In this document: positions 5,314-64,000 of the stretch, piece by piece
How the letters are laid out: every line of letters starts with the position of its first letter
Position numbering within the stretch: the stretch's first letter is position 1
DNA from: Balneolales bacterium
GTDB lineage: Bacteria; Bacteroidota; Rhodothermia; Balneolales; HLUCCA01
DNA: 64,000 nucleotides
Reading direction: 5' to 3'
NCBI GenBank assembly: GCA_041749075.1
Contig: JBGTBY010000031.1
Location: 20,342-84,341 of the forward strand
Position numbers and translations under genes: made by a program
Notes under the pieces: generated by a model
Databases searched by the model: none
Seen by the model: only the letters and a program-made list of their open reading frames with translations
What the model was told of the DNA's origin: nothing

Positions 5314-5347
5314 GTATGGAATCTACCGTTAACAATTCAATTTCGAG

Positions 5348-5355
5348 TATATTTG
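5348..5355 (+). promoter_or_regulatory. Candidate Bacteroidetes-type -7 promoter box (TAnnTTTG) upstream of ppx
   Basis: TATATTTG lies 35 nt upstream of the 5390 start codon, in the divergent intergenic region. Confidence 0.3.
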
Positions 5356-5389
5356 TTCCGGACCCAATCATCACCACCTTCCACTCCGC

Positions 5390-31449: not shown

Positions 31450-31450
31450 G

Positions 31451-31545
31451 GAAAATTTTAAATTTTAAAGTATTCAATTTTAAATGTAGAGGCTTTAATC
31501 ATGTATAATCAAGCACTTAACATTTAAAATTTATCATTTAAAATT
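31451..31545. repeat. AT-rich intergenic hairpin element, diverged copy without the GC hairpin
   Basis: Lies between convergent gene ends. Perfect 12-bp inverted repeat AATTTTAAATGT (31476-31487) / ACATTTAAAATT (31520-31531). Shares blocks AATTTTAAAT, CACTTAAnATTTAAAATT and TCATTTAAAATT with the four copies at 52.9-59.0 kb. Confidence 0.6.
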
Positions 31546-31546
31546 A

Positions 31547-43982: not shown

Positions 43983-44507
43983 TTAGGGCTCGATCACCAA
44001 TTTCAGGTTCATCCCCAATCCCGCTTCCACAATCTTTTTGAAGGTAGATAACTCGATATCGGTCTTGTTATTCTCCACACGTGAGATATAAAAGCGGGAT
44101 GTGCCGCTTCGATGCGCGACTTCTTCTTGCGTCAAGCCTGCCTTGATCCGCGCGGTTCGAATCAGTTTTCCAAAGCGATGGTTTGTCTCGCCACTCATTT
44201 CCGAACTCAAATCATATAAGACATCCGGACCGATTTCGTAAGGATGTCTTTCGTCTACTCCCTCATCATTTTTCAATGTGATGGTGATGTTGGGCCAGGA
44301 AAGTGTCTGGTTGCGCAATTCCACCTTCTGAAATTCCTTGATGTCGAGAAGCGGATTCTCGATATCGGTCTTCATCACGTTCCAGGATTCGAAAATCTGT
44401 TTGAAATCCAAGATTCGGCTTTCGCTGTTATTGAACATGACCTGAACGGTAAACCCGTCAATACGCTCAATCTTGAGGATGCGGGGGATTTTGATGTGCT
44501 TTCTCAT
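43983..44507 (-). CDS. DUF2442-like domain fused to XRE-type HTH (putative antitoxin/regulator)
   Basis: N-terminus ILKIERIDGFTVQVMFNNSESRILDF...TLSWPN...IGPDVLYDLS (DUF2442 pattern). C-terminus AGLTQEEVAHRSGTSRFYISRVENNKTD (XRE HTH). 4-nt overlap with the upstream gene. Confidence 0.75.
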   Translation of the reverse strand: MRKHIKIPRILKIERIDGFTVQVMFNNSESRILDFKQIFESWNVMKTDIENPLLDIKEFQKVELRNQTLSWPNITITLKNDEGVDERHPYEIGPDVLYDLSSEMSGETNHRFGKLIRTARIKAGLTQEEVAHRSGTSRFYISRVENNKTDIELSTFKKIVEAGLGMNLKLVIEP

Positions 44508-44737
44508 CGGCGTGGGTTCAACTTGTTATATGTGTCCATCAGATACGATATGTTCTGTTCAGCCCAAGAAATCACTTTCGTTCGTTGGGCTTTTGGTATG
44601 CTTCCAGCATAAGTCGCCAATGATTCGATTTCGATCAATTCTTCATATTCCGCATACAACACATGGAAATGCGGAGGGGGATGTTCTCTTGAGTAAACGT
44701 CAATCTTGATCGAATCAATGAGCTTGATCGTCGGCAT
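44504..44737 (-). CDS. DUF4160-family small protein
   Basis: 77 aa. IKIDVYSREHPPPHFHVLYAEYE is the characteristic DUF4160 motif. Confidence 0.8.
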   Translation of the reverse strand: MPTIKLIDSIKIDVYSREHPPPHFHVLYAEYEELIEIESLATYAGSIPKAQRTKVISWAEQNISYLMDTYNKLNPRR

Positions 44738-44740
44738 ACG

Positions 44741-44762
44741 ATGTTGTCTATGTAGATAACAT
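44741..44762. promoter_or_regulatory. 22-bp near-perfect palindrome 4 nt upstream of the DUF4160 start; candidate operator
   Basis: ATGTTGTCTA-TG-TAGATAACAT: 9 of 10 arm positions are complementary. Confidence 0.45.
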
Positions 44763-44835
44763 GATAGTGAGAGATAAAAGTATTTCCAATTGGGATTTTG
44801 GCTAAAAGTTGACCTGCGTTAAGAGCGCATAACGA

Positions 44836-45333
44836 CTATGCTGAATTCGCAGCTTGTCGCTCGATTTCGGCGCGTATCAGCTTTAAGTCGGATTGAAATT
44901 CCCTGTCGACTCGATTGCTATCAGATAATATATAAGCTGGTTTTCTATAAACATCAATTGGGAATGCATTTTGCCACGACGCCTTGTCTTTAGTTACTTC
45001 CACAGCTTGTTTCGATCCGAAAACAGTATCAGTTACTTCTATACTTGAGTTGAACTGGTCGGCAGTAATGTCAACTAAATACTCGTCGATCTCAATCCAA
45101 ACATGTCTTTGTAGACCAGAAAATCCTCCATTGACAATCTCAATTGATTTATAGCCTAGTTCAAGTAAGTACGAACCGAGTATTGTCGACGTTCTTTCAC
45201 AAGATCCGCCAGGGAAATTGGTAAATAGAAGAGATTTGATATCTAGGATAGATAGGTTCGATTTAACCCTTTCAACCGCATTTCTGAACGACTTACAATC
45301 TTCAAAAAGCTTTAATTCGAAGTTTTGCTCCAT
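44836..45333 (-). CDS. Hypothetical cytosolic protein with papain/transglutaminase-like Cys...His...Asp pattern
   Basis: 165 aa, no signal peptide. FPGGSCERTSTILGSYL (Cys at a predicted helix start) and RHVWIEIDEYLVDITADQF (His then Asp in a strand-like segment). AT-rich codon usage. Confidence 0.6.
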   Translation of the reverse strand: MEQNFELKLFEDCKSFRNAVERVKSNLSILDIKSLLFTNFPGGSCERTSTILGSYLLELGYKSIEIVNGGFSGLQRHVWIEIDEYLVDITADQFNSSIEVTDTVFGSKQAVEVTKDKASWQNAFPIDVYRKPAYILSDSNRVDREFQSDLKLIRAEIERQAANSA

Positions 45334-46082
45334 GAATTGTTTCTGAAGTATTGGTAATTAAACAGTTCAAAATCATCACTGTATATGATGTTGCTTTCAA
45401 TAAGAAAATCAAAAAAAAGTCGTCGACTTTCAATTTTAGAAACTAATACAGAATCAAACCGACTGAATTCGGGAATGTCGCTGGCTTTTCCCAAGACTAA
45501 ATCATACAAGTCACGAGTGTTGGTTTCGTCAGTTATCAACCCACCATACTTGTTTAGCAATACTAGGTTATTGTCGATGTATCGGATCACATCGTTGCTC
45601 GGGAAGATTTCAAAATTGTAGCTTCGAGTTCTTCCATCAATTACATAAATAAAGCTTGTCACATAGTGACCATCAGAAACCCGAACCTGTTTCCAACCTT
45701 CAATTTTCAGGACACCTTTCAGTGACTTCAAGTCATCTTGGATCAACGTCTCATTGTTTTTTATGGGCTTGACGGATCGAATCTCAGATAGCAAAAAAGA
45801 CCTTCTAACTTTATCTATTGCTTGCTGATCCAATGATGTTGCTATTTTATGCTCTTCGTGTGACGAACTAAGAATGGGTGTTTCTCTACCAGAGCTCAAA
45901 ATCCAGACATCACCTGTGCGCTTGTCGATTTTATAAGAAACGTGGTCTGATACTTTCTGAAGTTCAAATCGATCAGAACGATACTGGTAGACAATAATCG
46001 TGATCAGAATCAGGCTGACTACAAGCAGTAATGTTGTCCATGATGACAGGTAGAGCCTGTTTTTAACTTCTGGATTCGTCAT
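45312..46082 (-). CDS. Hypothetical membrane-anchored protein (single N-terminal TM)
   Basis: 256 aa. TM WTTLLLVVSLILITIIVY. No recognised motif. AT-rich. 22-nt overlap with the downstream gene. Confidence 0.6.
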   Translation of the reverse strand: MTNPEVKNRLYLSSWTTLLLVVSLILITIIVYQYRSDRFELQKVSDHVSYKIDKRTGDVWILSSGRETPILSSSHEEHKIATSLDQQAIDKVRRSFLLSEIRSVKPIKNNETLIQDDLKSLKGVLKIEGWKQVRVSDGHYVTSFIYVIDGRTRSYNFEIFPSNDVIRYIDNNLVLLNKYGGLITDETNTRDLYDLVLGKASDIPEFSRFDSVLVSKIESRRLFFDFLIESNIIYSDDFELFNYQYFRNNSWSKTSN

Positions 46083-52860: not shown

Positions 52861-52861
52861 A

Positions 52862-52979
52862 GAAATGTTGAATGCTGAAATAAGAGAATTTTAAATGAAA
52901 AATTTTAAATGAAGAGGGGCCCATCTTCACTTAAAATTTAAAATTTGCCTGCCGGAAGGCAGGCTTTCATTTAAAATTG
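52862..52979. repeat. AT-rich double-hairpin intergenic element, copy A
   Basis: AAATGTTGAATGCTGAAATAAGAGAATTTTAAATGAAAAATTTTAAATGAAGAGGGGCCCATCTTCACTTAAAATTTAAAATT-GCCTGCCGGAAGGCAGGC-TTTCATTTAAAATT; between convergent glgP and 52982 gene ends. Confidence 0.8.
52947..52964. terminator. GC hairpin GCCTGCC-GGAA-GGCAGGC, probable bidirectional terminator
   Basis: 7-bp GC stem flanked by A/T runs on both strands; between convergent genes. Confidence 0.6.
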
Positions 52980-53635: not shown

Positions 53636-53724
53636 ATAAGATTCCCCTAAGGTGCTGAATTACAGGTGTTTGACAACTCGGGAGAATGTATGAGGAACGG
53701 GAATGCTAAGTCAAGTGGGTCAAT

Positions 53725-53845
53725 AGAAATGTTGAATGTTGTACTAAGAGAATTTTAAATGAAAAATTTTAAATGAAGAGGGGGCTCATCTTCACTTAAA
53801 ATTTAAAATTTGCCTGCCGAGAGGCAGGCCTTTCATTTATAATTA
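53725..53845. repeat. AT-rich double-hairpin intergenic element, copy B
   Basis: Near-identical to copy A (AAATGTTGAATGTTGTACTAAGAGAATTTTAAATGAAAAATTTTAAATGAAGAGGGGGCTCATCTTCACTTAAAATTTAAAATT-GCCTGCCGAGAGGCAGGC-CTTTCATTTATAATT). Confidence 0.8.
53812..53829. terminator. GC hairpin GCCTGCC-GAGA-GGCAGGC
   Basis: Lies 22 nt downstream (minus strand) of the stop of the 53851-58440 gene. Confidence 0.6.
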
Positions 53846-53850
53846 CAACA

Positions 53851-55245
53851 TTATTTTATCAGAACCATCTTCCTCGTCAGCACACCCTGTGCCGATTGGA
53901 GGCGATAGATGTACACGCCGCTGGATAGATTCGACGCATCGAATGTGACGCGATGCGCGCCGGCCGGCATCGGCCCATCGATCAATACCGCGACTTCGCG
54001 ACCCAGCATATCATACACAGTGAGGCGTAGGGACGCAAGATCTTGTGTCCCTACTTGAAATGCGATCACCGTGCTCGGATTAAACGGATTCGGATAATTC
54101 TGCGACAATCCGAATTCGACCGGAATCTGGGTGTCGATATCGGTCGTTTCGCCATATTCCACGATAAGCGTGAAACGAGGTCCATCGGTCGATTGAGTCT
54201 CAATGACCGGCGTGGTTTGCTTGTCAACGACCGATTTCTTCGCACGACGTTCCGGTGTGAATGCAACGATATCTCCTGATGTGTAAGATGTGCCCGACAC
54301 ATTGTCGCGCAAGGTCGCTTTCCAACCCATAGGCAGTAGATCGATATTGAACATCAGCTGATGTTCCTCGGAAAAGGTGCTGATCACATCCACAGGGATT
54401 TCCATCACGTCGAAGTCCAACGGAAGGTGATTAATGTCGAGCAGCTTCCCGTATTCCGAACTGAAGCTGGCCACCTGTACATACTCCGGTGAAAGGGGGA
54501 CGAGCTTGATCGCATCCATCCGGTCTTTTCCGTACAATCCGTTGGCCGTGAACTGGATCCAGCTTGAATTCGTGAGTCCGCCTTTGTTTTGGATGGTCAA
54601 CTCAATCGTAGCGATCGGGTTCGACTCTTCTTTTCCAAGGAACACGGAGTTTCCTTCCACACGGGCGGATGTGGGAACAGTCAGCGTTGGGTCCGCATCC
54701 ATGGTTTCGACGAAGAAGCCGTTGAACGGACCGATGTGGCCGTTCGCCAATCCACCAGTTGTTCCATTCCACGCGCGCCACTGCGAGGTGGAATTATCCC
54801 AGACATAGACCGAGCCGGATAGATTGGCTTTGCTGAGCTGATTCCAGTTTATGTTGGTGGTGAAGGGGTTTCCAATCAGGCTCCATCCGCCCACATTCGG
54901 ATTCAGTTTGGCGCTCAGGTTCACATCGGCGCTGAGCGTGAATCCATCGGCGCGGAGCGATTTCGGGAAGCCGACATCAGTCCCATTTCCAGGTCCGTCG
55001 TCGTCGCTGAATATGTAGGCGAGAACAGCGTTTCCTTGTGGGAAGACGGCCGATGCGTCTGTTAATGCTGTCCATTGGGTGGAGTCGCGGCTAGAGCCAC
55101 TCAAAGGCCAGGTATACACGTTCGGAGCGCCGTGCTCGACGGAGGCGCCGGTGAAGCCTTGGGTCCAGAGTCCGCGGAAGAAGGAGGCGTAGCTGGAGTC
55201 CGCGACAGGGGTGGATAACAGTCTCCAGCCTTGGGTGCCTGTGAG
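53851..55245 (-). repeat. Shared C-terminal module, copy 1 (paralogous to 59054-60448)
   Basis: 464 codons from LTGTQGWRLLST... to the stop align without gaps to the other giant protein. Some stretches are identical over >100 nt (e.g. about 54540-54650 vs 59745-59855). Confidence 0.9.
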
Positions 55246-58200
55246 TTGCGCCGATTCATCCCGGTAGTTTTGAATCCCATATTTGCTGAACAGATGGGTT
55301 TCGACGGTGTTTCGGTCGGCTTCGCTCAGCACTCCGTTATAGATGATGACCTCAGCGATGTCTCCGGCGAAGTGATATTGTGGGGAATAACCAAGTCCGA
55401 TGCCCAAATTCAGGTTTCCGGCATAAGAACTCTGTCCATTTACATTTTGGGTGGAACCGGTTCTGTTCACCGCTACGCGGAGTTGACTGGCATTTGCGCT
55501 GGCGTTGAATAGATGCGCTGTTGCGTCGGTGAAGGTGCCGTCGGTGCCCCGATCTTCCCAAACACCTCCTCTGGGATTATAGCGCAAACCGACCCCGATG
55601 TTCATTTTCAGCTCGAACTCCGACACCGCGCCACCCAACAAAAACATGGGATTGGTGTTGCTGGTAGCCGATTTGGCCACGATGAACACTTCGTAGTCGT
55701 TGTTTTGAATCCCTAAATCGGCGGTGGTGGGAAGCGTGAAATAGCTGTTGGTGCCGTTGAACCGCAGTGCCGGACGATGATTGATGACCGAATCGGCGCG
55801 TAACGGACGAAAGCTTAGAGCCGGATGGACAGCATTGTGACCGGATCCAGTCAAATTGCGCCAACTGCTCACCGAATCGTTGGAGGTCACAAAACCTCGA
55901 CTCGCATCCAGATGCAAGGCCAATAGGGTAGTGGGGATAGGGGACATGTAGGTAGTGAAATCGCTTATGAGACCTGGAATCCGTTGGTCGGTGTAATCAT
56001 CAGATGAATTCCCCTCGTTCGAATGGCCGATTCCCAACGCGCCGTAACACCCGAGGTTGGGATTGGTGCCGCACATACCGAAACTCAGTACCCTGCCCTC
56101 ATCCAGTAATGCCAAGCTGTGGTCTTGCTGAGTCACCGCCGAAACCACGCGGCGCCCATTTAAACTTGTGCCGAGGACCAACGTGGGGATGGTGTTATCG
56201 AAAACGGAGGAGGTCTCGAACCCTACCAAGCGTGCGAAACCCCAGCTGTAGATCTTGCCGGATGCGGTGCGCAGCATGGAAGTCCGGTAGCCGGCTTCCA
56301 CCTCCACGATGGTTTCGCCCGGGAGATTGGTGAGAAGAACGGGGGTCGGGACGTAAGTATCGGTCTTGTTATTCACCCCCACCCCCAGCTGTCCATCCCC
56401 ATTATCGCCGAAGGCATACAGCAGCCCGTCCTCAGTCAGCACCAGGTAGTGTGGTTGGGATCCGGTTGTGGAGGTGCTGGCGAAACCGATGGCCCCGGCG
56501 GTGACCTTTTTCCCTTCCACCTGGGCGTGGGTAGCCAAGGTAGGCACATTCAAATCATCCGAATGGCCAAAGCCCATTTCCCCGAGTCCCCCCTCACCCC
56601 ACAGGAAAACGGTTCCGTCCGAGGCGATGGCCATGCTGTTTTGTCCGGCCACCGCAATCTGAACGATGGTTTTTCCATCCAGATTGGTGGTTACCGGCGT
56701 CGGGACAAAACGATTCACAAAATCGCCCACACCCAATTGACCGGAATGATTGCTTCCCATGGCAAAAAGAGTTCCGTCGTCGGCCAATAAAAGGGCATGG
56801 GATCTGGTCTCCGACGTTGTAGATCGGTTCCAATTCACCGCGATATCCACGATGTTCTTCCCATCCAAGTTGGGATGGGTGATCAAGGTGGGCACATACA
56901 CATCCAAACTATCGCCGTTCCCAAGCGTTCCGTTTGCCCCGAAACCAAAACTGAATACCCGGCCTTCCGAAGTCAACAGGTAGGTATTGCGCCCGCCGGC
57001 TTTCACATCGGTGATGGTGTGCCCGGATAGATTGCTATGCGAGAGCAAGGTGGGGGAGGATGTGCTGAAACTCACTTCTCGGGTCTGATACCGGGTGCCG
57101 TTGATCAAGTCTATTTGACTGATGATGGGATCCATTATGAACACCGTTCCGTCGGAGGCAAGCAGCGCACCGTAATAATGATTTGTAGTCAACCTACTGA
57201 TCGTTTTGCCTTGCAAGTAGGTGGTAATGATGGGCAAAGGTCTGGGAGTATTGCCACTGTATCCGGTTCCAGCGTTATGGCCGGCGCCGTACAGGCTTCC
57301 ATCAGTTGCACGAAACAGCGACATTTGGCTACCGATCACCGCTTCCACGATCGGTTTGTTGTCGAAATAGGCGGAGGGTATTTTGGTCCAGGAGGTATCG
57401 CTGCGCATAAACGTTCCATTGCCCGATTGCCCGGCTGGATTGTCTCCAACCGCATACACCGAACCGTCGGTAGCCACGAGCAGGGCTCCTTCAAATTGTA
57501 CTGGAATGGAAGAGATGCTTGCGATGGCTTTCCCTTCCAAACTGGGATGGGTGACGGGGGTGGGATTCCAGAGATCCACCGATTGCGGACCTTGCCCCAA
57601 GCTGTACCTGTGATTTCCCCAACTGAACACGGTTCCATCGGTGGCGAGCACCATGCTTGCCCCGTTCATTGCAGCCACCTGCTGGATGGTTTTGTCTGAA
57701 AACTGGCTGCCCGGAATGAGGACGGGAGAAATGGTGGATAACGAGCCGCCATTTCCAAACTGACCGTTGGCATTAGAGCCCACCGCATACACCTTGTTGG
57801 AAGCGGTCAGCAGCAGGGTATGACTTCCGCTAGTGCTTATCTGCACCACCTTTTCCCCGGCCATATTGGATCGGTCCATCGGGGTCGGATCGAGGATGGG
57901 GTTCGTCGTGCTCCCGATGCCTACATACCCGTTGCTGTTCACACCCATCACGAATACGGTGCCTTTGTCCGACAGCAGCATGCTGTAATGCCCGCCGCCG
58001 GCGCCCAAACTACCTGTTGCCACCTGCACGATGGTGGCCGTGTCGAGGGCGGCGTGGGTGATGAGTACGGGGTTCGTATAGTGGTTGCCGTTGTTCAGGG
58101 TTCGATTCGCAGACCCGAATTCGTAGTTGTACCCGTTTCCCAGACCATACACCTCGCCTTGCGATGTCAGGAAGAGGGCATGCTGGTAGCTAAGGGAGAT

Positions 58201-58440
58201 ATCCGTGATTGTTTTTCCGGCGAAGGTGGGATGGTCGAGCGCGCGGGGGATGTCCATGCGTGTATCACCGCCTTGGCCGAGTACGCCGTTACCTCCGAAA
58301 CCGAATGTAAACACCTGGCCGTTTTCGTTGAGCACCACACTGTGATAAGCACCCACGGCAATTTTAGCTGGGTTGGATTGCGCCTGAAGCGACATCGCGC
58401 ACAAGCTGATGAATAGAGTTGCAGATAGTCGGTTTTTCAT
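53851..58440 (-). CDS. Giant T9SS cargo: tandem RCC1-repeat beta-propellers + LamG-like domain + shared 464-aa C-terminal module with type-A CTD
   Basis: Signal peptide MKNRLSATLFISLCAMSLQAQ (start 58440, not 58494). About 14-16 RCC1-type repeats (GAYHSVVLNENGQVFTFGFGGNGVLGQG..., roughly 55950-58360). LamG (ALRFNGTNSYF...GDIAEVIIYNGVLSEADRNTVETHLFSKYGI, roughly 55246-55940). C-terminus LSQNYPNPFNPSTVIAF...VYDMLGREV. Confidence 0.9.
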   Translation of the reverse strand: MKNRLSATLFISLCAMSLQAQSNPAKIAVGAYHSVVLNENGQVFTFGFGGNGVLGQGGDTRMDIPRALDHPTFAGKTITDISLSYQHALFLTSQGEVYGLGNGYNYEFGSANRTLNNGNHYTNPVLITHAALDTATIVQVATGSLGAGGGHYSMLLSDKGTVFVMGVNSNGYVGIGSTTNPILDPTPMDRSNMAGEKVVQISTSGSHTLLLTASNKVYAVGSNANGQFGNGGSLSTISPVLIPGSQFSDKTIQQVAAMNGASMVLATDGTVFSWGNHRYSLGQGPQSVDLWNPTPVTHPSLEGKAIASISSIPVQFEGALLVATDGSVYAVGDNPAGQSGNGTFMRSDTSWTKIPSAYFDNKPIVEAVIGSQMSLFRATDGSLYGAGHNAGTGYSGNTPRPLPIITTYLQGKTISRLTTNHYYGALLASDGTVFIMDPIISQIDLINGTRYQTREVSFSTSSPTLLSHSNLSGHTITDVKAGGRNTYLLTSEGRVFSFGFGANGTLGNGDSLDVYVPTLITHPNLDGKNIVDIAVNWNRSTTSETRSHALLLADDGTLFAMGSNHSGQLGVGDFVNRFVPTPVTTNLDGKTIVQIAVAGQNSMAIASDGTVFLWGEGGLGEMGFGHSDDLNVPTLATHAQVEGKKVTAGAIGFASTSTTGSQPHYLVLTEDGLLYAFGDNGDGQLGVGVNNKTDTYVPTPVLLTNLPGETIVEVEAGYRTSMLRTASGKIYSWGFARLVGFETSSVFDNTIPTLVLGTSLNGRRVVSAVTQQDHSLALLDEGRVLSFGMCGTNPNLGCYGALGIGHSNEGNSSDDYTDQRIPGLISDFTTYMSPIPTTLLALHLDASRGFVTSNDSVSSWRNLTGSGHNAVHPALSFRPLRADSVINHRPALRFNGTNSYFTLPTTADLGIQNNDYEVFIVAKSATSNTNPMFLLGGAVSEFELKMNIGVGLRYNPRGGVWEDRGTDGTFTDATAHLFNASANASQLRVAVNRTGSTQNVNGQSSYAGNLNLGIGLGYSPQYHFAGDIAEVIIYNGVLSEADRNTVETHLFSKYGIQNYRDESAQLTGTQGWRLLSTPVADSSYASFFRGLWTQGFTGASVEHGAPNVYTWPLSGSSRDSTQWTALTDASAVFPQGNAVLAYIFSDDDGPGNGTDVGFPKSLRADGFTLSADVNLSAKLNPNVGGWSLIGNPFTTNINWNQLSKANLSGSVYVWDNSTSQWRAWNGTTGGLANGHIGPFNGFFVETMDADPTLTVPTSARVEGNSVFLGKEESNPIATIELTIQNKGGLTNSSWIQFTANGLYGKDRMDAIKLVPLSPEYVQVASFSSEYGKLLDINHLPLDFDVMEIPVDVISTFSEEHQLMFNIDLLPMGWKATLRDNVSGTSYTSGDIVAFTPERRAKKSVVDKQTTPVIETQSTDGPRFTLIVEYGETTDIDTQIPVEFGLSQNYPNPFNPSTVIAFQVGTQDLASLRLTVYDMLGREVAVLIDGPMPAGAHRVTFDASNLSSGVYIYRLQSAQGVLTRKMVLIK
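54027..54054. repeat. 28-bp palindrome inside the CTD coding sequence (one mismatch)
   Basis: GTAGGGACGCAAGATCTTGTGTCCCTAC; encodes part of QVGTQDLASLRL. Confidence 0.9.
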
Positions 58441-58567
58441 AACATCTGGGACTAAGTTGACAACGGCTTCTGTTTTAATGTAGTAAAAAATCATACTAGA
58501 ATCGTGTCATTTTGCGTGCGCGGTTGTGTCAAGCTGGATTCAGCCTTAGATCTTCACAAGAGACAAG

Positions 58568-58663
58568 AAGAATTTTAAATGATAAATTTTAAATGAAGAG
58601 GGGGCATTACTACACTTAAAATTTAAAATTGGCCTGCCGAGAGGCAGGCTTTCATTTAAAATT
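58568..58663. repeat. AT-rich double-hairpin intergenic element, copy C (left part shorter, first hairpin degraded)
   Basis: GAATTTTAAATGATAAATTTTAAATGAAGAGGGGGCATTACTACACTTAAAATTTAAAATT-GGCCTGCCGAGAGGCAGGC-TTTCATTTAAAATT; overlaps the stop codon of the mini-gene. Confidence 0.75.
58632..58649. terminator. GC hairpin GCCTGCC-GAGA-GGCAGGC
   Basis: Immediately downstream (minus strand) of the 58662 stop. Confidence 0.55.
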
Positions 58664-58850
58664 AAAGAGAGGCTTTCTTCCTCAGCTTCTTCCACGCATA
58701 CGCCCCGCCTGCGGCAGCAAGAAGCCCGAGTCCGCCGTCGATAGGAGCTTGACTAGGAGCCGCGGGTAACCCCGGTGGTTGTGCCAAAAGAATGGTGGTT
58801 GTGATCAGGATGATCGCGAATGCGAAGAAAAGGATGATGACGGTTTTCAT
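58662..58850 (-). CDS. 62-aa mini-protein: signal peptide + short Pro-rich linker + C-terminal 'PID-GG'/TM/basic sorting-signal-like tail
   Basis: MKTVIILFFAFAIILITTTILLAQ | PPGLPAAPSQA | PIDGGLGLLAAAGGAYAW | KKLRKKASL. Start placed at 58850; the ORF-track N-extension MSFFKLLKFQIP would bury the signal peptide. Confidence 0.6.
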   Translation of the reverse strand: MKTVIILFFAFAIILITTTILLAQPPGLPAAPSQAPIDGGLGLLAAAGGAYAWKKLRKKASL

Positions 58851-58893
58851 GGGGATTTGAAATTTAAGAAGTTTGAAAAAAGACAATTTTTAA

Positions 58894-59025
58894 AAATGTT
58901 GAATGTTGAAATAAGAGAATTTTAAATGTTGAATTTTAAATGTTGAATTTTAAATGAAGAGGGGGCCCATCTTCACTTAGAATTTAAAATTGGCCTGCCG
59001 AGAGGCAGGCCTTTCATTTATAATT
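58894..59025. repeat. AT-rich double-hairpin intergenic element, copy D (internal ATGTTGAATTTTAA unit triplicated)
   Basis: AAATGTTGAATGTTGAAATAAGAGAATTTTAAATGTTGAATTTTAAATGTTGAATTTTAAATGAAGAGGGGGCCCATCTTCACTTAGAATTTAAAATT-GGCCTGCCGAGAGGCAGGC-CTTTCATTTATAATT. Confidence 0.8.
58993..59010. terminator. GC hairpin GCCTGCC-GAGA-GGCAGGC
   Basis: Lies 44 nt downstream (minus strand) of the 59054 stop. Confidence 0.55.
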
Positions 59026-59053
59026 GAAAGCAATGAGTTCATTGTCAGCCCCA

Positions 59054-60448
59054 TCACTTAAGAAGCACCATCTTCCTCGTGAGCACACCCTGCGCCGTTT
59101 GGAGACGATAGATGTACACGCCGCTTGAGAGATTCGACGCATCGAAGGTGATGCGGTGCGCGCCGGCCGGCATGGGTCCATCGATTAGAACCGAGACCTC
59201 ACGACCTAACAGATCATACACGGTGAGGCGTAGGGACGCAAGATCTTGCGTCCCTACTTGAAATGCGATTACCGTGCTCGGATTAAACGGATTCGGATAA
59301 TTTTGCGACAATCCGAATTCAACAGGTGTCTGCGGATCGAGATCGGCCGTTTCGCCATATTCCACGATAAGCGTGAACCGATGTCCATCGGTGGATTGTG
59401 CCTCGATTACAGGACTTGAATCCGCTCCTGGCGCCGCTTTCTTCGCACGATGTTCTAGTGTGAACGCAACGACATCACCTGATGCATAGGTTTTGCCCGT
59501 CTCATTGTCGCGCAACGTCGCTTTCCAGCCCATTGGCAGTAGATCGGTATTGAACATCAACTGATGTTCCTCGGCGAACGTGCTAATCACATCCACCGGA
59601 ATTTCCATGACGTCGAAGTCCAATGGGAGATGATTGATGTCGAGCAGCTTTCCATATTCCGAACTGAAACTGGCCACTTGAACATAATCCGGGGAAAGCG
59701 GGACGAGCTTGATCGCATCCATCCGGTCTTTTCCGTCCAATCCGTTGGCCGTGAACTGGATCCAGCTTGAATTCGTGAGTCCGCCTTTGTTTTGGATGGT
59801 CAACTCAATCGTAGCGATCGGGTTCGACTCTTCTTTCCCAAGGAACACGGAATTTCCATCCACTCGGGCGGATGTGGGAATGGTCAGGGTTGGGGACGCA
59901 TCAAAAGTTTCCACGAAAAAGCCGTTGAACGGACCGATGTGGCCGTTGGAGAGTCCTCCCGTAGTGCCATTCCATGTTTTCCATGAAGAGGCGTTGTTAT
60001 CCCAGACATAAACAGAGTTTGATAGACCGTTTTTGCTGAACTCATCCCAAGCCACGTTCGTGATGTACGGGTTTCCGATGAGGCTCCATCCGCCCACATT
60101 CGGGTTGAGTTTGGCGCTTAAGTCCGAATCCGAATTCCACGTGAATCCTTCACGGAGGAAGGTTTTCGGGAATCCGGCGTTGTTGTCGTTGCCCGGACCA
60201 TTATCATCGCTGAAGATGTACGCCAGAACGGCGGTTCCTTGTGAGAAGACGGTCGAAGCGTCTGTTAGCGCCGACCATTGAGTGGAATCGCGGTTGGCGC
60301 CGTTGATGGGCCACGTGTAGACGTTCGGAGCGCCGTGTTCGACGGAAGCGCCGGTGAAGCCTTGGGTCCAGAGTCCGCTGAAGAAAGACGCATAACTCGA
60401 ATCGGCGATCGAAGTGGATAACAATCTCCATCCCTGCGTGCCAGTCAG
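59054..60448 (-). repeat. Shared C-terminal module, copy 2
   Basis: See 53851-55245. The duplication appears to include the downstream repeat element (copies B and D both end ...GGCAGGCCTTTCATTTATAATT). Confidence 0.9.
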
Positions 60449-63400
60449 CGTTGGTGCGCCGATGCGATGCGTTCCGGAATTGGTGCGCAGCCATGGGAAG
60501 GATGCGCCACTGGTGATCTGCCAGACCTCGGCGAAATCCCAGCTTGTGTAATTGGCACTGGTATTCATCTGAGCCGTTGTCAACCCGGTTCCCGCGGCGG
60601 ATGTGGCTTGGCCGCTGGTTTCGGTGTTCCAGTAGGAGTTGGTGACGGTGCCAGAATTGGAACCTATGAAACCTCCAACCGCCGTTCCACCCCCGGTCAC
60701 TGCGCCGATGCTGTAAGAATTGGTGATGGTGGAGCTTGATATAATCCGCCCGACGAATCCGCCAATATGAATATTATTTTCGGTTGATGGCACAGTTACG
60801 GATCCTGTGGAGTACGAATTTGAAATATCAGTGATGAAATTATCCTCACCGATGAAGCCACCAATACGGGATGCATCGCCCTGTATCAACATATGTCCCG
60901 TCGAGTAGGATGATGTGATATTGATTTCGCCTGAGTAGTTTTGTCCAATAAAACCACCCAAATGACTGCCATTGCCAAGAGCAGTCACGTTGCCTGATGA
61001 GGACGAATTCGAGATGGTTACAGAGCCTTCTCCGAGGTATCCGATCAGGCCTCCCATATTGCTGGCATTTCCACTACCGGACAAATTCCCAGTGGATGTT
61101 ACATGACTGATTGTGACATCACCGTTTACTTGACCGACGGCCCCTCCAATGTATTCGGGGCCATTCATTCCTAACGCAATCGATACATCAACAGTTGATT
61201 GCTCGATTATTGAATTGCCCGTCAGTTCGCCAACAAGTCCACCAATGAAAGTGATTTCGCCATTTCCACCGGCATTGATAGATCCCGAAGACACAATGCC
61301 AGTGAGTACACCATTTTCCAAAGACCCTGCAATACTACCAACATAAGACACAGGATCATCACCAAACGTGAAGTTGACGTTCACCAGCTCAATGTCATAT
61401 GCCGTTCCTCTCATGTAACCAAACAGGCCCGTGAGAGAAGCTTGTCTGTGGTATATGAAGAGATTACTGATCGAATTGTTGTTTCCATTGAAATTGCCTG
61501 TAAAGGGATAACCGAAGTCTCCAATCGGCACCCATCCCTCACCGGTATTGTATGGAGCCACATCCAGATCAAGGTCGTTGTTCAAGATGAAGTGCGCATT
61601 CAGGAAGTAGCGCACAGAGTCTAACTGAGACACGGATGTGATTTGGTAGGGATTTCCCTCAACACCCGTTCCGCCCGCGAAGGGTAAATTCAATGTGGAG
61701 GCAGAGTGTCTTGCCGGATCGGCGGTGAGATAGGCTTGACGACCCGGGATGCCATTGAATTCATACACAGCCACATGGTAGGTGGCATTTTGAGCGAGTC
61801 CGGTCACGTCTACCGATGTTCCGGTTCCGACGTAGACCACCTTATTGCCATTGCCAAGGTCTGTAGCGGAAGAAAAGTCGGGATCGCCCGTGTAGGTCGT
61901 CCAATCGACAGGAGCCGCATCCACTGCGCTACCTTGTTTGACCACAATCATTCTGTAATCACCGTCACCAGGGACAGCCGAGAGGGTCATGCTGGTGCGA
62001 TCGATATTGCTGCTTGCGATAGTACCTGATGCGGTGGGTGGGCTCACCGTCAGATATTTTCCGGTCAAGTACGCTTCAACGGAGTCACGGGCTTCCGGAC
62101 TCAGCACAGCATTATAGATGATGATTTCAGCGATGTCGCCGTAAAACCAGTTGCTACCACCTGATTTGGTTCCAACCGACAAGCCGTTGCCGTATGCACT
62201 CCGTGAATTCACTTCATTTTCTGCAACATGGACACCGTTCACAGCTAAGACGCCCTCTGTGTTCGATGCTCTCATATTGAACAGATGAGGCTGCGTGTCT
62301 GTGAACTGACCTGGGGTGCCTACATGTGAGGATGAGGTGCCATCATTTGTTAAGAATCGAGCTCCACCCGTGTCGTTGGTCCAAAGTTCAAAGTCGCCAT
62401 TTGAGACCAATGCCGTCGTCAGGATGTAATGGTTGTTGGTGTGTGAGGTAGCGGATCGGGCGAGAATGAAGATCTCATAGTCGCTATTTTGGATGCCCAG
62501 GGCTGCAGTGGATGGCAACAGAAAATAGTTCGTGCCGGCATCGTCGAAGCGGACAACCGGTTGCCCGTTCATCGCATTTTCGACAACGGATGGTTGGAAG
62601 GCAACTGGAGCGTCATGGGATGCATCATTCCCATTTTCGGATTGATCGGCCCAGGAGCTGAGTCTGCCCGCTTCTATGCCCGTTCCATAATCCGCGCTGA
62701 GGAACAATCGCAAGTTGGCGTAGGGGATGGGGGTGCGGGTGAGCACGCTGTCTCTTGCCGGATTGACCGACATATAGAGTTCATCACCAACATCACCATT
62801 GTATTCGAACACCGCGAAATGATAGGTGGTGCGTTCATCCAAACCGGTGATGGTCACGTCCATGCCATCGCCTACATAGACCACATGGTTCCCGGTTCCC
62901 ATTGTGGTGTTTCCGGTATATGTTGTCCCATCCACGGGCTCAAAATCTACGGCAGAACCGCTTTTCGCCACGACCATCCGACGATCCCCATTCCCTGGTG
63001 TTAAGCTTATTCGTGCGCTCGTGGTGGTGATGTCCGAAAAGGTGATGTCGGTTGCGGCAAGTGTCGGAGGAATCGAAAGCCCATATTTTGCAGACAAATA
63101 CGCTTCTACGGAGTCTCTTTGCAATGCCGACAAAATCTGATTGTAGATGATGATTTCGGCGATGTCACCATTCATCGCAAAGCTGTCATCTGCTCGAAGC
63201 CCTAATCTCAAATTTCCAGCGAATGAACTTCGGGAATTCTTTTCTCGGTATACCGAGGCCTTTCCGTTCACCGTGATTTGACTGAAGGTATCGGTGGCTT
63301 GCATGCGGATAAGTTGAGGCTGGGTATTGGTATAAGCACCTGTCGTACCCACATCCAAATACTGTCCGTCCGTCAGGTTATTATTGGGCGCACCTATATT

Positions 63401-64000
63401 ATTTGGTATGTACCGAAAACCTCCATTTCCAGCTCCGTTGGTATGAAGTTCGTTTCGTCCTAAGTCACCCGCTATCAGAAATTGGATGTCGTTCGTAGTG
63501 CTGTAAACCGCCGTCGATCGATACACAATGAAGATGTCGGAGTCTTTATCGGTGATATCGAGGCTGCTGGCTGTAGGAAGATTCAAAAATTGCCCACCCG
63601 TAAAGCGAATGATGGGCTTCCCGTTGATCACATCTGAAACCAGCATCGGACGCGTCACTGCAGAAGGTGCCTCCGCGTCGATGAGCGCATTACCGGATTG
63701 GTCGGACCAAGCCGTGAGTGTATCGCCGGACAAACTTGTACCCAGACCCGCGCTGAGTAGCAGACGCAGATTGGCATAGGGGATGGGAGCGATTGTCGCA
63801 ACACTGTCACGTGCCGGTGTGGTCAACAAGTAGGTCTCCACCTCTTCAACCACATCGAATTCAAAGATCGCGAAGTGGTATTCCGTTAATGCATCCAGAC
63901 CGGTGATGTTCACGCTATTGCCATTCCCAGCATACACCGCATAGGTGCCGTCGCCCAGATCGGCATTTGCGCTGTAGGCAACTCCATCCACAGGTTCAAC
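59054..64000 (-). CDS. Giant T9SS cargo (N-terminus beyond window): [FN3-like + LamG] repeats + GLUG-motif beta-helix + shared 464-aa C-terminal module with type-A CTD
   Basis: The frame continues upstream of the ORF-track GTG at 63991 (VEPVDG... is mid-repeat). Repeat marker PIPYANLRL recurs at a 352-aa period. LamG tails GDIAEIIIYN..L....RDSVEAYL..KY. GLUG-like GGLVG/GGLIG/GGFIG/GGFVG repeats roughly 60482-61684. C-terminus identical in type to 53851-55245. Confidence 0.9.
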   Translation of the reverse strand, partial: VEPVDGVAYSANADLGDGTYAVYAGNGNSVNITGLDALTEYHFAIFEFDVVEEVETYLLTTPARDSVATIAPIPYANLRLLLSAGLGTSLSGDTLTAWSDQSGNALIDAEAPSAVTRPMLVSDVINGKPIIRFTGGQFLNLPTASSLDITDKDSDIFIVYRSTAVYSTTNDIQFLIAGDLGRNELHTNGAGNGGFRYIPNNIGAPNNNLTDGQYLDVGTTGAYTNTQPQLIRMQATDTFSQITVNGKASVYREKNSRSSFAGNLRLGLRADDSFAMNGDIAEIIIYNQILSALQRDSVEAYLSAKYGLSIPPTLAATDITFSDITTTSARISLTPGNGDRRMVVAKSGSAVDFEPVDGTTYTGNTTMGTGNHVVYVGDGMDVTITGLDERTTYHFAVFEYNGDVGDELYMSVNPARDSVLTRTPIPYANLRLFLSADYGTGIEAGRLSSWADQSENGNDASHDAPVAFQPSVVENAMNGQPVVRFDDAGTNYFLLPSTAALGIQNSDYEIFILARSATSHTNNHYILTTALVSNGDFELWTNDTGGARFLTNDGTSSSHVGTPGQFTDTQPHLFNMRASNTEGVLAVNGVHVAENEVNSRSAYGNGLSVGTKSGGSNWFYGDIAEIIIYNAVLSPEARDSVEAYLTGKYLTVSPPTASGTIASSNIDRTSMTLSAVPGDGDYRMIVVKQGSAVDAAPVDWTTYTGDPDFSSATDLGNGNKVVYVGTGTSVDVTGLAQNATYHVAVYEFNGIPGRQAYLTADPARHSASTLNLPFAGGTGVEGNPYQITSVSQLDSVRYFLNAHFILNNDLDLDVAPYNTGEGWVPIGDFGYPFTGNFNGNNNSISNLFIYHRQASLTGLFGYMRGTAYDIELVNVNFTFGDDPVSYVGSIAGSLENGVLTGIVSSGSINAGGNGEITFIGGLVGELTGNSIIEQSTVDVSIALGMNGPEYIGGAVGQVNGDVTISHVTSTGNLSGSGNASNMGGLIGYLGEGSVTISNSSSSGNVTALGNGSHLGGFIGQNYSGEINITSSYSTGHMLIQGDASRIGGFIGEDNFITDISNSYSTGSVTVPSTENNIHIGGFVGRIISSSTITNSYSIGAVTGGGTAVGGFIGSNSGTVTNSYWNTETSGQATSAAGTGLTTAQMNTSANYTSWDFAEVWQITSGASFPWLRTNSGTHRIGAPTLTGTQGWRLLSTSIADSSYASFFSGLWTQGFTGASVEHGAPNVYTWPINGANRDSTQWSALTDASTVFSQGTAVLAYIFSDDNGPGNDNNAGFPKTFLREGFTWNSDSDLSAKLNPNVGGWSLIGNPYITNVAWDEFSKNGLSNSVYVWDNNASSWKTWNGTTGGLSNGHIGPFNGFFVETFDASPTLTIPTSARVDGNSVFLGKEESNPIATIELTIQNKGGLTNSSWIQFTANGLDGKDRMDAIKLVPLSPDYVQVASFSSEYGKLLDINHLPLDFDVMEIPVDVISTFAEEHQLMFNTDLLPMGWKATLRDNETGKTYASGDVVAFTLEHRAKKAAPGADSSPVIEAQSTDGHRFTLIVEYGETADLDPQTPVEFGLSQNYPNPFNPSTVIAFQVGTQDLASLRLTVYDLLGREVSVLIDGPMPAGAHRITFDASNLSSGVYIYRLQTAQGVLTRKMVLLK
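59230..59257. repeat. Perfect 28-bp palindrome inside the CTD coding sequence
   Basis: GTAGGGACGCAAGATCTTGCGTCCCTAC equals its own reverse complement. Confidence 0.95.

What the first reader, a model, noticed from the sequence alone, without database searches (positions are those of the whole stretch)
53725..60448. Two giant T9SS cargo proteins carry unrelated heads on a near-identical 464-aa C-terminal module that was duplicated together with its downstream repeat element
Seen directly: the last 464 codons of the 53851-58440 and 59054->64000 genes align gap-free, from LTGTQGWRLLST... to the stop. From the aligned stretches I inspected by eye, identity is roughly 90%, with blocks identical over >100 nt next to blocks that look nearer 85%. 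This patchy pattern suggests ongoing gene conversion. Upstream of that point the proteins are unrelated: one has tandem RCC1 propellers + LamG, the other has [FN3+LamG] repeats + a GLUG beta-helix. The repeat elements directly downstream (copies B and D) share variants (…GGCAGGCCTTTCATTTATAATT) not found in copies A and C, so the duplicated unit looks like [module + element]. Only the last ~80 aa is the known T9SS sorting domain. I do not recognise the ~380 aa before it (GWRLLS..., NPNVGGWSLIGNP, GHIGPFNGFFVE). It may be a conserved stalk or anchor onto which different binding heads are swapped. I infer a modular head-swapping surface-protein system.
Basis: partly seen in the sequence, partly recalled or inferred. 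Interest (0 to 1): 0.72.

Follow-up and report, generated by a model that had tools for sequence, protein, structure and literature searches.

The report
Shared tail on two secreted giants
Two neighbouring giant surface-protein genes share an 83%-identical 464-residue tail, made of a widespread but uncatalogued two-domain module plus the standard type IX secretion signal, and the copies are kept alike by gene conversion; this is a fairly ordinary pattern for such proteins.

Summary
The core observation holds. The last 464 codons of the minus-strand genes 53851-58440 and 59054->64000 align without gaps. Identity is 83% (amino acid and nucleotide), not about 90%, and local identity ranges from 60% to 100%.

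Only the last ~80 residues are a type A T9SS sorting domain. The ~365 residues before it match no Pfam or NCBIfam model, but they are not rare. A profile finds 14,490 cluster representatives, almost always directly upstream of a sorting domain and behind very different heads. The module is homologous to the pre-CTD region of Flavobacterium johnsoniae RemZ (hhalign probability 99.6%).

The tandem gene pair is ancestral. A related MAG has the same pair, with modules only 53% identical. In this genome the tails were homogenised by 3'-biased gene conversion, and synonymous divergence falls in steps (dS 1.0, 0.48, 0.09). The related MAG shows an independent conversion tract over its sorting domain.

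The proposed duplication unit [module + downstream repeat] is not supported. The repeat is a dispersed terminator-like palindrome, and copy B is closest to copy A.

One unexpected result: in Balneolales, module genes are very often followed by a tiny PID-CTERM gene.

The stalk or anchor role remains an inference.

The parts
53851..58440 (-). Gene A: 1529-aa T9SS cargo. Order: signal peptide, RCC1 propellers, LamG, module, type A CTD. An alternative upstream ATG lies at 58494.
   Evidence: ORF and translation. Pfam WD40_RLD 380 bits, RCC1 246 bits, Laminin_G_3 20 bits (below cutoff), Por_Secre_tail 34.9 bits. The N-terminus MKNRLSATLFISLCAMSLQAQ was read directly.
59054..64000 (-). Gene B, 3' 1648 codons only (5' end beyond the window). 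Order: FN3-like/LamG repeats, GLUG region, module, type A CTD. The full protein is 3033 aa.
   Evidence: Translation. Pfam Glug 49 bits, fn3 34 bits, Por_Secre_tail 34.5 bits. P0009 (3033 aa) ends with all 1648 residues, identical.
54154..55245 (-). Module copy A, tail residues 1-364. Beta domain 1 is about residues 1-200, beta domain 2 about 210-330. A variable linker spans 331-356, followed by the closing strand RFTLIVEY.
   Evidence: HMM hit 395 bits. AlphaFold model pLDDT 86.6, two beta-rich domains. No Pfam or NCBIfam model.
59357..60448 (-). Module copy B, tail residues 1-364.
   Evidence: HMM hit 394 bits. 81% aa identity to copy A over the module.
53854..54099 (-). Type A T9SS C-terminal sorting domain of gene A.
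   Evidence: TIGR04183 46.1 bits (cutoff 23); PF18962 37 bits (cutoff 27); residues 384-461 of the tail.
59057..59302 (-). Type A T9SS C-terminal sorting domain of gene B.
   Evidence: TIGR04183 44.6 bits.
54497..54654 (-). Lowest-divergence tract, copy A (tail codons 198-250). Candidate for the most recent conversion.
   Evidence: 158 nt with 3 differences, including a 99-nt identical run. Permutation p<5e-5 on all sites and on third positions. dS 0.09 against 0.48-1.0 elsewhere.
59700..59857 (-). Lowest-divergence tract, copy B.
   Evidence: Same as copy A.
52861..52978 (-). Intergenic palindromic element, copy A, downstream of the 217-aa ORF.
   Evidence: Repeat family D1/D7; alignment A2; nested-hairpin fold, z -6.4.
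53725..53844 (-). Element copy B, starting 6 nt after the gene A stop codon.
   Evidence: Fold z -7.2. GC hairpin scored as terminator-like.
58571..58663 (-). Element copy C. It overlaps the stop codon of the PID-CTERM mini-gene, and its 3' tail has diverged.
   Evidence: Fold z -8.5.
58894..59025 (-). Element copy D, starting 28 nt after the gene B stop codon. It carries an extra 14-nt unit.
58662..58850 (-). 62-aa PID-CTERM mini-protein gene between gene B and gene A.
   Evidence: NF046080 PID_CTERM 45 bits (cutoff 26). The same gene pair is conserved in L074 and L001 and across Balneolales loci.

Best explanation
The shared 464-residue tail has two parts. The first is a ~365-residue, two-domain, all-beta 'pre-CTD' module. 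The second is a ~80-residue type A T9SS sorting domain.

The module belongs to a large uncurated family. This family sits directly upstream of the sorting domain in T9SS cargo of Balneolales, Fidelibacterota/Marinimicrobia and Flavobacterium. The pre-CTD region of F. johnsoniae RemZ is its characterised relative.

Genes A and B are an old tandem pair, and each already carried its own copy of the module. In this lineage, non-reciprocal recombination (gene conversion) repeatedly overwrote one 3' end with the other. The tracts are biased towards the 3' end, which produces the stepped mosaic.

These steps are shown: homology, position, head diversity, ancestral synteny and the conversion signature.

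This step is inferred. After export and removal of the sorting domain by the PorU-type sortase, the module would be the cell-proximal end of the mature protein. It would then serve as a common base that presents different binding or enzymatic heads. Homogenisation would keep the tails matched to the shared secretion and attachment machinery.
For: Tail anatomy:
- Por_Secre_tail / TIGR04183 matches only residues 384-461.
- The AlphaFold model has pLDDT 86.6 and two beta domains.

Family size and position:
- 14,490 representatives at E<=1e-3 and 1,874 at E<=1e-30.
- In 150 of 155 checked proteins the module is followed by an NYPNPF-type sorting domain about 100 aa from the C-terminus. Heads range from 0 to 2763 aa.
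- 51 of 52 sampled proteins carry Por_Secre_tail, and their heads are diverse.

RemZ link:
- The PDB profile search hits only RemZ chain 8gl8_D, E 1.5e-14, residues 709-1011.
- hhalign against the Flavobacterium family gives probability 99.56%, E 1.3e-23, over 292 columns.

Ancestral pair:
- MAG M1805 (L001) has giant gene a, then a PID-CTERM mini-gene, then RCC1 gene b. Modules a and b are only 53% identical.

Homogenisation:
- A-B tails are 83% identical, against 67% to P0011 and 58% / 53% (gene A tail / gene B tail) to the RCC1 orthologue in M1805.
- Three-way informative sites with the syntenic orthologue P0001: A=B 108, A=P 43, B=P 36.
- dS is 1.0 for codons 1-195, 0.48 for codons 196-464 and 0.09 for codons 198-250. 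Species-level dS in the flanking genes is 0.46-0.62.
- M1805 a/b have an independent 269-nt tract over the sorting domain at 89% identity, with a 92-99% core, on a 52-73% background.
Against: - No T9SS machinery gene was looked for or found in the window.
- The module's function is untested. Foldseek against PDB found no fold relative (best E 0.19), and only RemZ's CTD is resolved experimentally.
- Whole-tail dS is 0.66, so most homogenisation is old rather than ongoing.
- The 158-nt tract also has reduced dS against P0001 (0.29, versus 0.66-0.80 for the tail). Part of its low divergence may therefore be a locally slow synonymous rate.
- The direction of conversion, and conversion versus module replacement by illegitimate recombination, cannot be distinguished.
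- Heads include enzymes (subtilase, amylase), so a 'base for binding heads' role is not general.
Confidence: 0.6

Rival explanations
1. A recent segmental duplication copied one unit, [module + sorting domain + downstream repeat element], onto a second gene.
For: Element copies B and D share two variants absent from A and C. Homology starts sharply at LTGTQGW in both genes.
Against: - Homology breaks at the stop codon: the spacers are 6 nt and 28 nt and unrelated.
- B is closest to A (94.9%), not D (93.0%). C and D share another variant.
- The elements (88-95% identical) are less diverged than the tails (83%).
- The element also follows two unrelated genes, and a related copy lies at 31450-31550.
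- Both genes already had modules in the ancestor shared with M1805.
Confidence: 0.07
2. There was no gene conversion. The tails descend from one old duplication and look similar only because of strong purifying selection.
For: dN/dS is about 0.15 over the tail. Codons 256-300 show zero or one (≤1) non-synonymous change per 30-codon window despite dS of about 1.4-1.6.
Against: - Selection on the protein does not explain dS stepping from 1.0 to 0.48 to 0.09.
- It does not explain a run of 45 identical third positions.
- It does not explain the excess of A=B sites over B=orthologue sites, 108 against 36.
- It does not explain the contrast with M1805, where the same pair is 53% identical.
Confidence: 0.08
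3. The module is not a passive stalk. It is a second secretion-related unit, for example a docking or folding element for periplasmic translocon partners (SprE, Skp) or for the PorV shuttle. It would be needed to export very large passengers.
For: - It is invariably adjacent to the sorting domain.
- RemZ, which carries the homologous region, was the substrate trapped in the F. johnsoniae Extended Translocon containing SprE and SkpA (PMC10994853).
- It occurs with enzymatic as well as adhesive heads.
Against: - Type A CTDs alone suffice to export sfGFP in F. johnsoniae (PMC12618676).
- Most T9SS cargo lacks the module.
- No interaction data exist.
Confidence: 0.15
4. In Balneolales the module works together with the adjacent PID-CTERM mini-protein. 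The mini-protein or its processed peptide would provide the anchor or acceptor for the secreted protein.
For: - 68 of 73 PID-CTERM mini-genes lie within 450 nt downstream of a module gene on the same strand (median 94.5 nt). Four of the other five sit immediately upstream of a module gene (L014 x2, L016, L017); the fifth (L114) was not checked.
- The pairing holds in 15 of 40 module clusters defined at 50% identity.
- 10 of 10 sampled mini-proteins pass the NF046080 cutoff.
Against: - Gene A and about half of the Balneolales module genes lack the mini-gene.
- Fidelibacterota and Flavobacterium module genes have none.
- A Sec-inserted C-terminal helix would sit in the inner membrane, not at the cell surface.
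- The loci were selected for module genes, so genome-wide specificity is unknown.
Confidence: 0.12

Closest known systems
[quoted passage not shown]
   Same: - The ~300-residue region directly upstream of the sorting domain is homologous: E 1.5e-14 and hhalign probability 99.6% over 292 columns.
- The closing strand motif matches (RFTLIV here, RFVLRY there).
- Both are T9SS type A substrates.
- Tandem genes with different heads on the same tail also occur in Flavobacterium (L134).
   Different: - Sequence identity is only about 16%.
- Flavobacterium tails end in a sorting domain that NCBI scores as type C (NF033708). The window tails do not match that model.
- The heads differ.
- There is no PID-CTERM mini-gene in the Flavobacterium locus.
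- Whether RemA itself carries the module was not tested.
Porphyromonas gingivalis RgpA / Kgp / HagA modular adhesin regions (CAD and DUF2436 domains) upstream of the CTD
   Same: Different T9SS cargo proteins share highly similar C-terminal modules in front of a conserved ~80-aa CTD. Combinatorial modularity and recombination among these genes are documented (PMC5266723).
   Different: The domain families are unrelated: no CAD or DUF2436 Pfam match was found here. The gingipain modules are tandemly repeated and >90% identical. Here there is a single two-domain module at 83% identity.
Type A T9SS C-terminal sorting domain (TIGR04183 / PF18962)
   Same: The last ~80 residues of both tails score above the curated cutoffs and lie at the extreme C-terminus.
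   Different: This domain accounts for only 18% of the shared tail.
REP/BIME-like intergenic palindromic repeats that double as intrinsic terminators
   Same: The ~120-nt element has nested inverted repeats and a GC-rich hairpin followed by a T-rich run. It sits just after stop codons, and one related copy lies between convergent genes.
   Different: The sequence family is specific to this lineage. It is absent from the 73 related loci held when the search was run. There is no Rfam family above threshold; RAGATH-32 scores 29.2 bits against a cutoff of 41.8.
PID-CTERM protein-sorting domain (NCBIfam NF046080, Pfam PF28310)
   Same: The 62-aa ORF between the two genes matches at 45 bits against a cutoff of 26.
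   Different: Here the 'protein' is almost nothing but a signal peptide plus the sorting signal. It is systematically paired with module-bearing T9SS genes. No paper in the searched library mentions the domain.

Membership tests
T9SS type A cargo | C-terminal Por_Secre_tail / TIGR04183 domain above the curated cutoff, at the extreme C-terminus | tested here: met
   TIGR04183 46.1 and 44.6 bits (cutoff 23). PF18962 37 bits on the isolated gene A tail and 34.5 bits on gene B (cutoff 27). Residues 384-461 of 464.
T9SS type A cargo | N-terminal Sec signal peptide | tested here: inconclusive
   Read by eye only. Gene A starts MKNRLSATLFISLCAMSLQAQ. Full-length gene B (P0009) starts MHIKSLLVLAITLFVMTGQQAFGQ. 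No signal-peptide predictor was available.
T9SS type A cargo | Host genome encodes the T9SS machinery (SprA/Sov, PorV, PorU, GldKLMN) | not tested
   The other genes in the window were not screened for these, and the rest of the genome is not available.
RemZ-like pre-CTD module family | Profile-level homology to the region upstream of the RemZ CTD | tested here: met
   hmmsearch of profile A3 against PDB: RemZ residues 709-1011, E 1.5e-14. hhalign A3 against A5: probability 99.56%, E 1.3e-23.
RemZ-like pre-CTD module family | Module lies immediately N-terminal to the sorting domain | tested here: met
   The median distance from module end to C-terminus is 101 aa. 150 of 155 proteins are followed by an NYPNPF motif. 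The window tails have the same layout.
RemZ-like pre-CTD module family | Type C (ChiA-type, NF033708) sorting domain, as in the Flavobacterium members | tested here: not met
   The window tails match only TIGR04183 and not NF033708, even at E<=10. This is a feature of the Flavobacterium branch, not of the module.
RemA-type mobile gliding adhesin | Cell-surface movement driven by the gliding machinery; lectin domain | not testable with these tools
   No lectin domain was found in either head. Motility cannot be assessed from sequence.
Concerted evolution by gene conversion | Paralogues within a genome are closer to each other than to their orthologues | tested here: met
   A-B 83%, against 67% (P0011) and 58% / 53% (gene A / gene B tail to the RCC1 orthologue in M1805). 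Site patterns 108: 43: 36.
Concerted evolution by gene conversion | Discrete tracts of sharply lower synonymous divergence | tested here: met
   dS 1.0, 0.48 and 0.09 in successive parts. Run tests give p<5e-5. Caveat: the tract also has lowered dS against P0001 (0.29).
Concerted evolution by gene conversion | Independent recurrence in a related genome | tested here: met
   M1805 genes a/b have a 269-nt tract at 89% identity (92-99% core) over the CTD, on a 52-73% background.
   Stop codons are TAA and TGA. Spacers are 6 nt and 28 nt and do not align.
   A-B 94.9%, B-D 93.0%, A-D 91.8%.
Gingipain-type CAD/DUF2436 adhesin modules | Pfam match to the cleaved-adhesin or DUF2436 domains | tested here: not met
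   No such hit in either protein or in 30 module homologues at E<=1.

The most novel reading that the evidence does not exclude
The RemZ-like pre-CTD module defines a distinct subclass of type A T9SS substrates. It would carry its own machinery contact, either a surface attachment or track-coupling unit or a translocon-docking unit. In Balneolales it would have a dedicated partner: the PID-CTERM mini-protein encoded immediately downstream. That partner would supply the anchor or acceptor. Tails would then be exchangeable chassis, kept uniform within a genome by gene conversion.
Probability: 0.15. Interest if true: 0.7.

Novelty: new member of a known kind. Interest (0 to 1): 0.42.

Why it matters
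A ~365-residue, two-domain region occurs in more than 10,000 protein clusters. It always sits next to the T9SS sorting signal, yet it has no Pfam or NCBIfam model and no solved structure. Its only characterised relative, RemZ, is the substrate seen trapped in the F. johnsoniae translocon, and there the region was unresolved.

Defining this domain would improve annotation of T9SS cargo in marine Balneolales, Marinimicrobia and Flavobacteria. It would also give experimentalists a concrete region to test for surface retention or translocon engagement.

The gene-conversion pattern itself is ordinary biology. The tight pairing with PID-CTERM mini-genes is the least expected result and links two sorting systems that have not been connected before.

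Tried and rejected
- A single-sequence word-indexed search returned only 8 homologues and wrongly suggested rarity. The exhaustive profile search overturned this.
- Exact look-ups of gene A's product failed with either start codon.
- The metagenome scan for close relatives found nothing above 52% identity, so no same-species locus could be compared.
- The Fidelibacterota MAG with 14 modules at 87-95% identity looked like a second case of 'different heads, same tail'. Its heads are also paralogous, so it is mostly a recent family expansion.
- Short 'module-only' proteins turned out to be fragments or miscalled starts.
- The element was not found in the 73 related loci held at that point. Rfam gave only a sub-threshold RAGATH-32 hit. 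A MITE reading was rejected: the conserved sequence runs beyond the inverted repeats and no target-site duplication is visible.
- The Shrivastava 2012 RemA paper is not held, and RemA's sequence could not be fetched. RemA membership is therefore untested.
Full report
**1. Observation**

Both genes are on the minus strand.
- Gene A is 53851-58440. An upstream ATG at 58494 is less likely, because MKNRLSATLF... reads as a signal peptide.
- Gene B runs from 59054 past the window end.
- The last 464 codons start at LTGTQGW (55245 and 60448) and align without a gap. Identity is 83.4% at amino-acid level and 82.7% at nucleotide level.
- 60-nt windows range from 60% to 100% identity.
- Gene B's full product is 3033 aa, because P0009 ends with all 1648 window residues unchanged.
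- Sequence just upstream of the junction is unrelated. The heads do share a LamG-type domain, 42% identical over 230 aa.

**2. Anatomy of the tail**

- Pfam and NCBIfam recognise only tail residues 384-461, as Por_Secre_tail / TIGR04183, a type A T9SS sorting domain.
- No model covers residues 1-365, in the window proteins or in 30 diverse homologues. Precomputed Pfam annotations of about 200 homologues show nothing there either.
- With a 30-sequence alignment, AlphaFold gives pLDDT 86.6. The model has two beta-rich domains (about residues 1-200 and 210-330), a variable low-confidence linker (331-356) and a closing strand RFTLIVEY.
- Foldseek against PDB found no relative (best E 0.19, TM <= 0.15). 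Other structure libraries were unavailable.

**3. How common the module is**

- The word-indexed search found 8 relatives. An exhaustive profile search found 14,490 cluster representatives at E <= 1e-3 and 1,874 at E <= 1e-30.
- In the best 155 proteins the module ends a median of 101 residues from the C-terminus. 150 of them are followed by an NYPNPF-type sorting domain. Heads range from 0 to 2763 residues.
- Among 52 sampled full proteins, 51 carry Por_Secre_tail. Their heads include LamG (7), DUF285 (4), LTD (4), RCC1 (3), FG-GAP (2), Glug (2) and fn3 (2). Single cases include a DUF5122 propeller, a subtilase, an alpha-amylase, NHL and Big domains.
- Genome hits come from Balneolales (Balneola, Gracilimonas, Fodinibius, Rhodohalobacter) and Fidelibacterota/Marinimicrobia, often as tandem arrays of 2-5 genes.

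**4. Closest characterised relative**

- A profile search of all PDB sequences hits a single protein: RemZ of Flavobacterium johnsoniae (8gl8_D), residues 709-1011 of 1114, E 1.5e-14.
[quoted passage not shown] It was trapped in the Extended Translocon, and only its CTD was resolved (PMC10994853).
- The RemZ fragment retrieves 445 Flavobacterium proteins. A profile-profile comparison with the Balneolales module gives probability 99.56%, E 1.3e-23, over 292 columns.
- NCBI names the Flavobacterium proteins after NF033708 (type C sorting signal), which covers only their last 55 residues. The window tails do not match that model.
- A Flavobacterium locus (L134) also has three tandem genes with different heads on this tail.

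**5. Evolution of the pair**

*The pair is ancestral.*
- Gene A's RCC1 head has full-length orthologues: L001 gene b at 50.5%, P0018 at 52% and L002 at 45%. Gene B's head matches P0011 at 52% over 1535 aa.
- MAG M1805 (L001) carries the same arrangement: giant LamG/FN3 gene a, a PID-CTERM mini-gene, RCC1 gene b, then gene c.
- In M1805 the a and b modules are only 53% identical.

*The window tails are more alike than their orthologues.*
- A and B tails are 83% identical, against 67% to P0011 and 58% / 53% (gene A tail / gene B tail) to M1805 b.
- Contig L074 comes from a relative whose flanks are 86% identical to the window. It carries the positional orthologue of gene B (P0001), followed by the PID-CTERM gene.
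- Over 801 shared sites the patterns are A=B 108, A=P 43 and B=P 36.

*Synonymous divergence is stepped.*

| Comparison | dS |
|---|---|
| A vs B, codons 1-195 | 1.0 |
| A vs B, codons 196-464 | 0.48 |
| A vs B, codons 198-250 | 0.09 |
| Window vs L074, flanking genes | 0.46-0.62 |

- The 198-250 tract is 158 nt with 3 differences, and it includes 45 consecutive identical third positions. Permutation gives p < 5e-5.
- Caveat: this tract also has lowered dS against P0001 (0.29), so part of the effect may be a locally slow rate.

*Independent support.*
- M1805 a/b share a 269-nt tract over the sorting domain at 89% identity (92-99% core), on a 52-73% background.
- Among RCC1 orthologues, head and tail identities are partly incongruent. 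For example, P0018 and L001 b are 69% identical in the head but 49% in the tail.

Together these results indicate repeated, 3'-biased gene conversion between old tandem paralogues. They do not indicate a recent duplication.

**6. The downstream element**

- Four copies of a ~120-nt element lie just after four consecutive minus-strand genes. These genes are the 217-aa ORF, gene A, the PID-CTERM mini-gene and gene B.
- A related fifth copy lies at 31450-31550 between convergent genes.
- The element folds into nested hairpins (z -6.4 to -8.5). Its GC hairpin scores as terminator-like on both strands.

| Element pair | Identity |
|---|---|
| A-B | 94.9% |
| B-D | 93.0% |
| A-D | 91.8% |
| B-C | 89.9% |
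| C-D | 87.9% |
| A-C | 87.8% |

- B and D do share two private variants. However, B is closest to A, C and D share another variant, and the stop-to-element spacers (6 nt and 28 nt) are unrelated.
- The element is absent from the 73 related loci held at that point. It has no Rfam family above threshold.
- It is best read as a lineage-specific dispersed intergenic palindrome that probably acts as a terminator. It was not co-duplicated with the module.

**7. Unexpected association**

- The 62-aa ORF at 58662-58850 consists of a signal peptide, the peptide QPPGLPAAPSQA and a PID-CTERM sorting signal (NF046080, 45 bits).
- Across all fetched loci, 68 of 73 such mini-genes lie within 450 nt downstream of a module gene on the same strand (median 94.5 nt). 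Four of the other five sit immediately upstream of a module gene (L014 x2, L016, L017); the fifth (L114) was not checked.
- The pairing spans 15 of 40 module clusters defined at 50% identity. It is absent from Fidelibacterota and from the Flavobacterium locus.
- 10 of 10 sampled mini-proteins pass the curated cutoff.
- No paper in the searched library mentions PID-CTERM.
- Because the loci were chosen for module genes, genome-wide specificity remains to be shown.

**8. Mechanism and rivals**

*Shown:* the tail is a RemZ-like module plus a type A CTD. The module is a mobile evolutionary unit joined to many heads. The two window copies were homogenised by gene conversion.

*Inferred from established T9SS biology* (type A CTDs are removed by PorU, and the new C-terminus is attached to a surface glycolipid; my own knowledge, consistent with PMC11969387): the module would be the cell-proximal part of the mature protein and would act as a common base.

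*Rivals:*
- A secretion or translocon-docking role.
- A partnership with the PID-CTERM mini-protein.
- Selection without conversion, contradicted by the synonymous-site data.

**9. Verdict**

Modularity and gene conversion hold. Rarity, near-identity and element co-duplication do not.
- Shared C-terminal modules and recombination among T9SS cargo genes are already known from the gingipain/HagA family (PMC5266723). This is therefore a new member of a known kind.
- The added value is a large uncurated domain family linked to RemZ, plus an unexplained PID-CTERM gene pairing.

Noticed in passing
window 58662-58850 (-); L001 4353-4523 and 14357-14563; L074 1002-1184; many loci L004-L128: A 56-80-aa PID-CTERM mini-protein gene (signal peptide, short Pro-rich peptide, PIDGG...KKLRKK) sits immediately downstream of module-bearing T9SS genes. 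This holds for 68 of 73 mini-genes, with a median gap of 94.5 nt. The pairing is Balneolales-specific and is not mentioned in any searched paper.
   Followed up: partly
window 52861-52978, 53725-53844, 58571-58663, 58894-59025, and 31450-31550: A lineage-specific ~120-nt nested-palindrome element built around AATTTTAAAT repeats and a GC hairpin. It occurs after stop codons and between convergent genes. Copy A gives a sub-threshold Rfam RAGATH-32 hit (29.2 bits against a cutoff of 41.8).
   Followed up: partly
L074 1180-2662 versus window 53718-58672: In a relative with 86%-identical flanks, cNMP-binding and short-chain dehydrogenase genes occupy the position held in the window by element C, gene A and element B. 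The more distant M1805 has the RCC1 gene at this position, so the L074 lineage probably lost or replaced it.
   Followed up: partly
L001 3988-4256 versus 9117-9385: The orthologous tandem pair in MAG M1805 has nearly identical sorting domains (one amino-acid difference) on otherwise 53%-identical tails. This is an independent 3' conversion tract.
   Followed up: yes
L045-L061 (Fidelibacterota MAG OZ252221.1): At least 14 genes carry modules 87-95% identical to each other, against about 65% to any other genome. Most heads are also paralogous, except in L059, whose head is unrelated.
   Followed up: partly
L134 1-10406 (Flavobacterium sp. CP130045.1): Three tandem genes with different heads (Ig-like, G8-like, DUF5122 propeller) all end in the RemZ-like module plus sorting domain. 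The middle gene appears split by a frameshift (3512-5044 and 5001-6317).
   Followed up: partly
window 55279-55366, 62054-62141, 63083-63170: 60-70% nucleotide similarity marks the conserved C-terminal end of LamG-type domains (GDIAEVIIYN...). It occurs once in gene A and at least twice in gene B, so the heads are not wholly unrelated.
   Followed up: partly
window 37049-43912 (-) and 35763-37052 (-): A 2287-aa hybrid signalling protein (CheB-like, CheR-like, multiple PAS, histidine kinase) is followed by a 429-aa histidine kinase. The 214-nt repeat at 36235-36448 and 37521-37734 (74% identical) falls in their kinase regions.
   Followed up: no
window 44001-46000: GC content drops to 0.407, against about 0.51 for the rest of the window.
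   Followed up: no
window 54434-54808 (+) and 59709-60011 (+): Antisense ORFs end in the same register in both module copies (54808 and 60011, offset 5203). They are most likely by-products of the shared sequence rather than genes.
   Followed up: no
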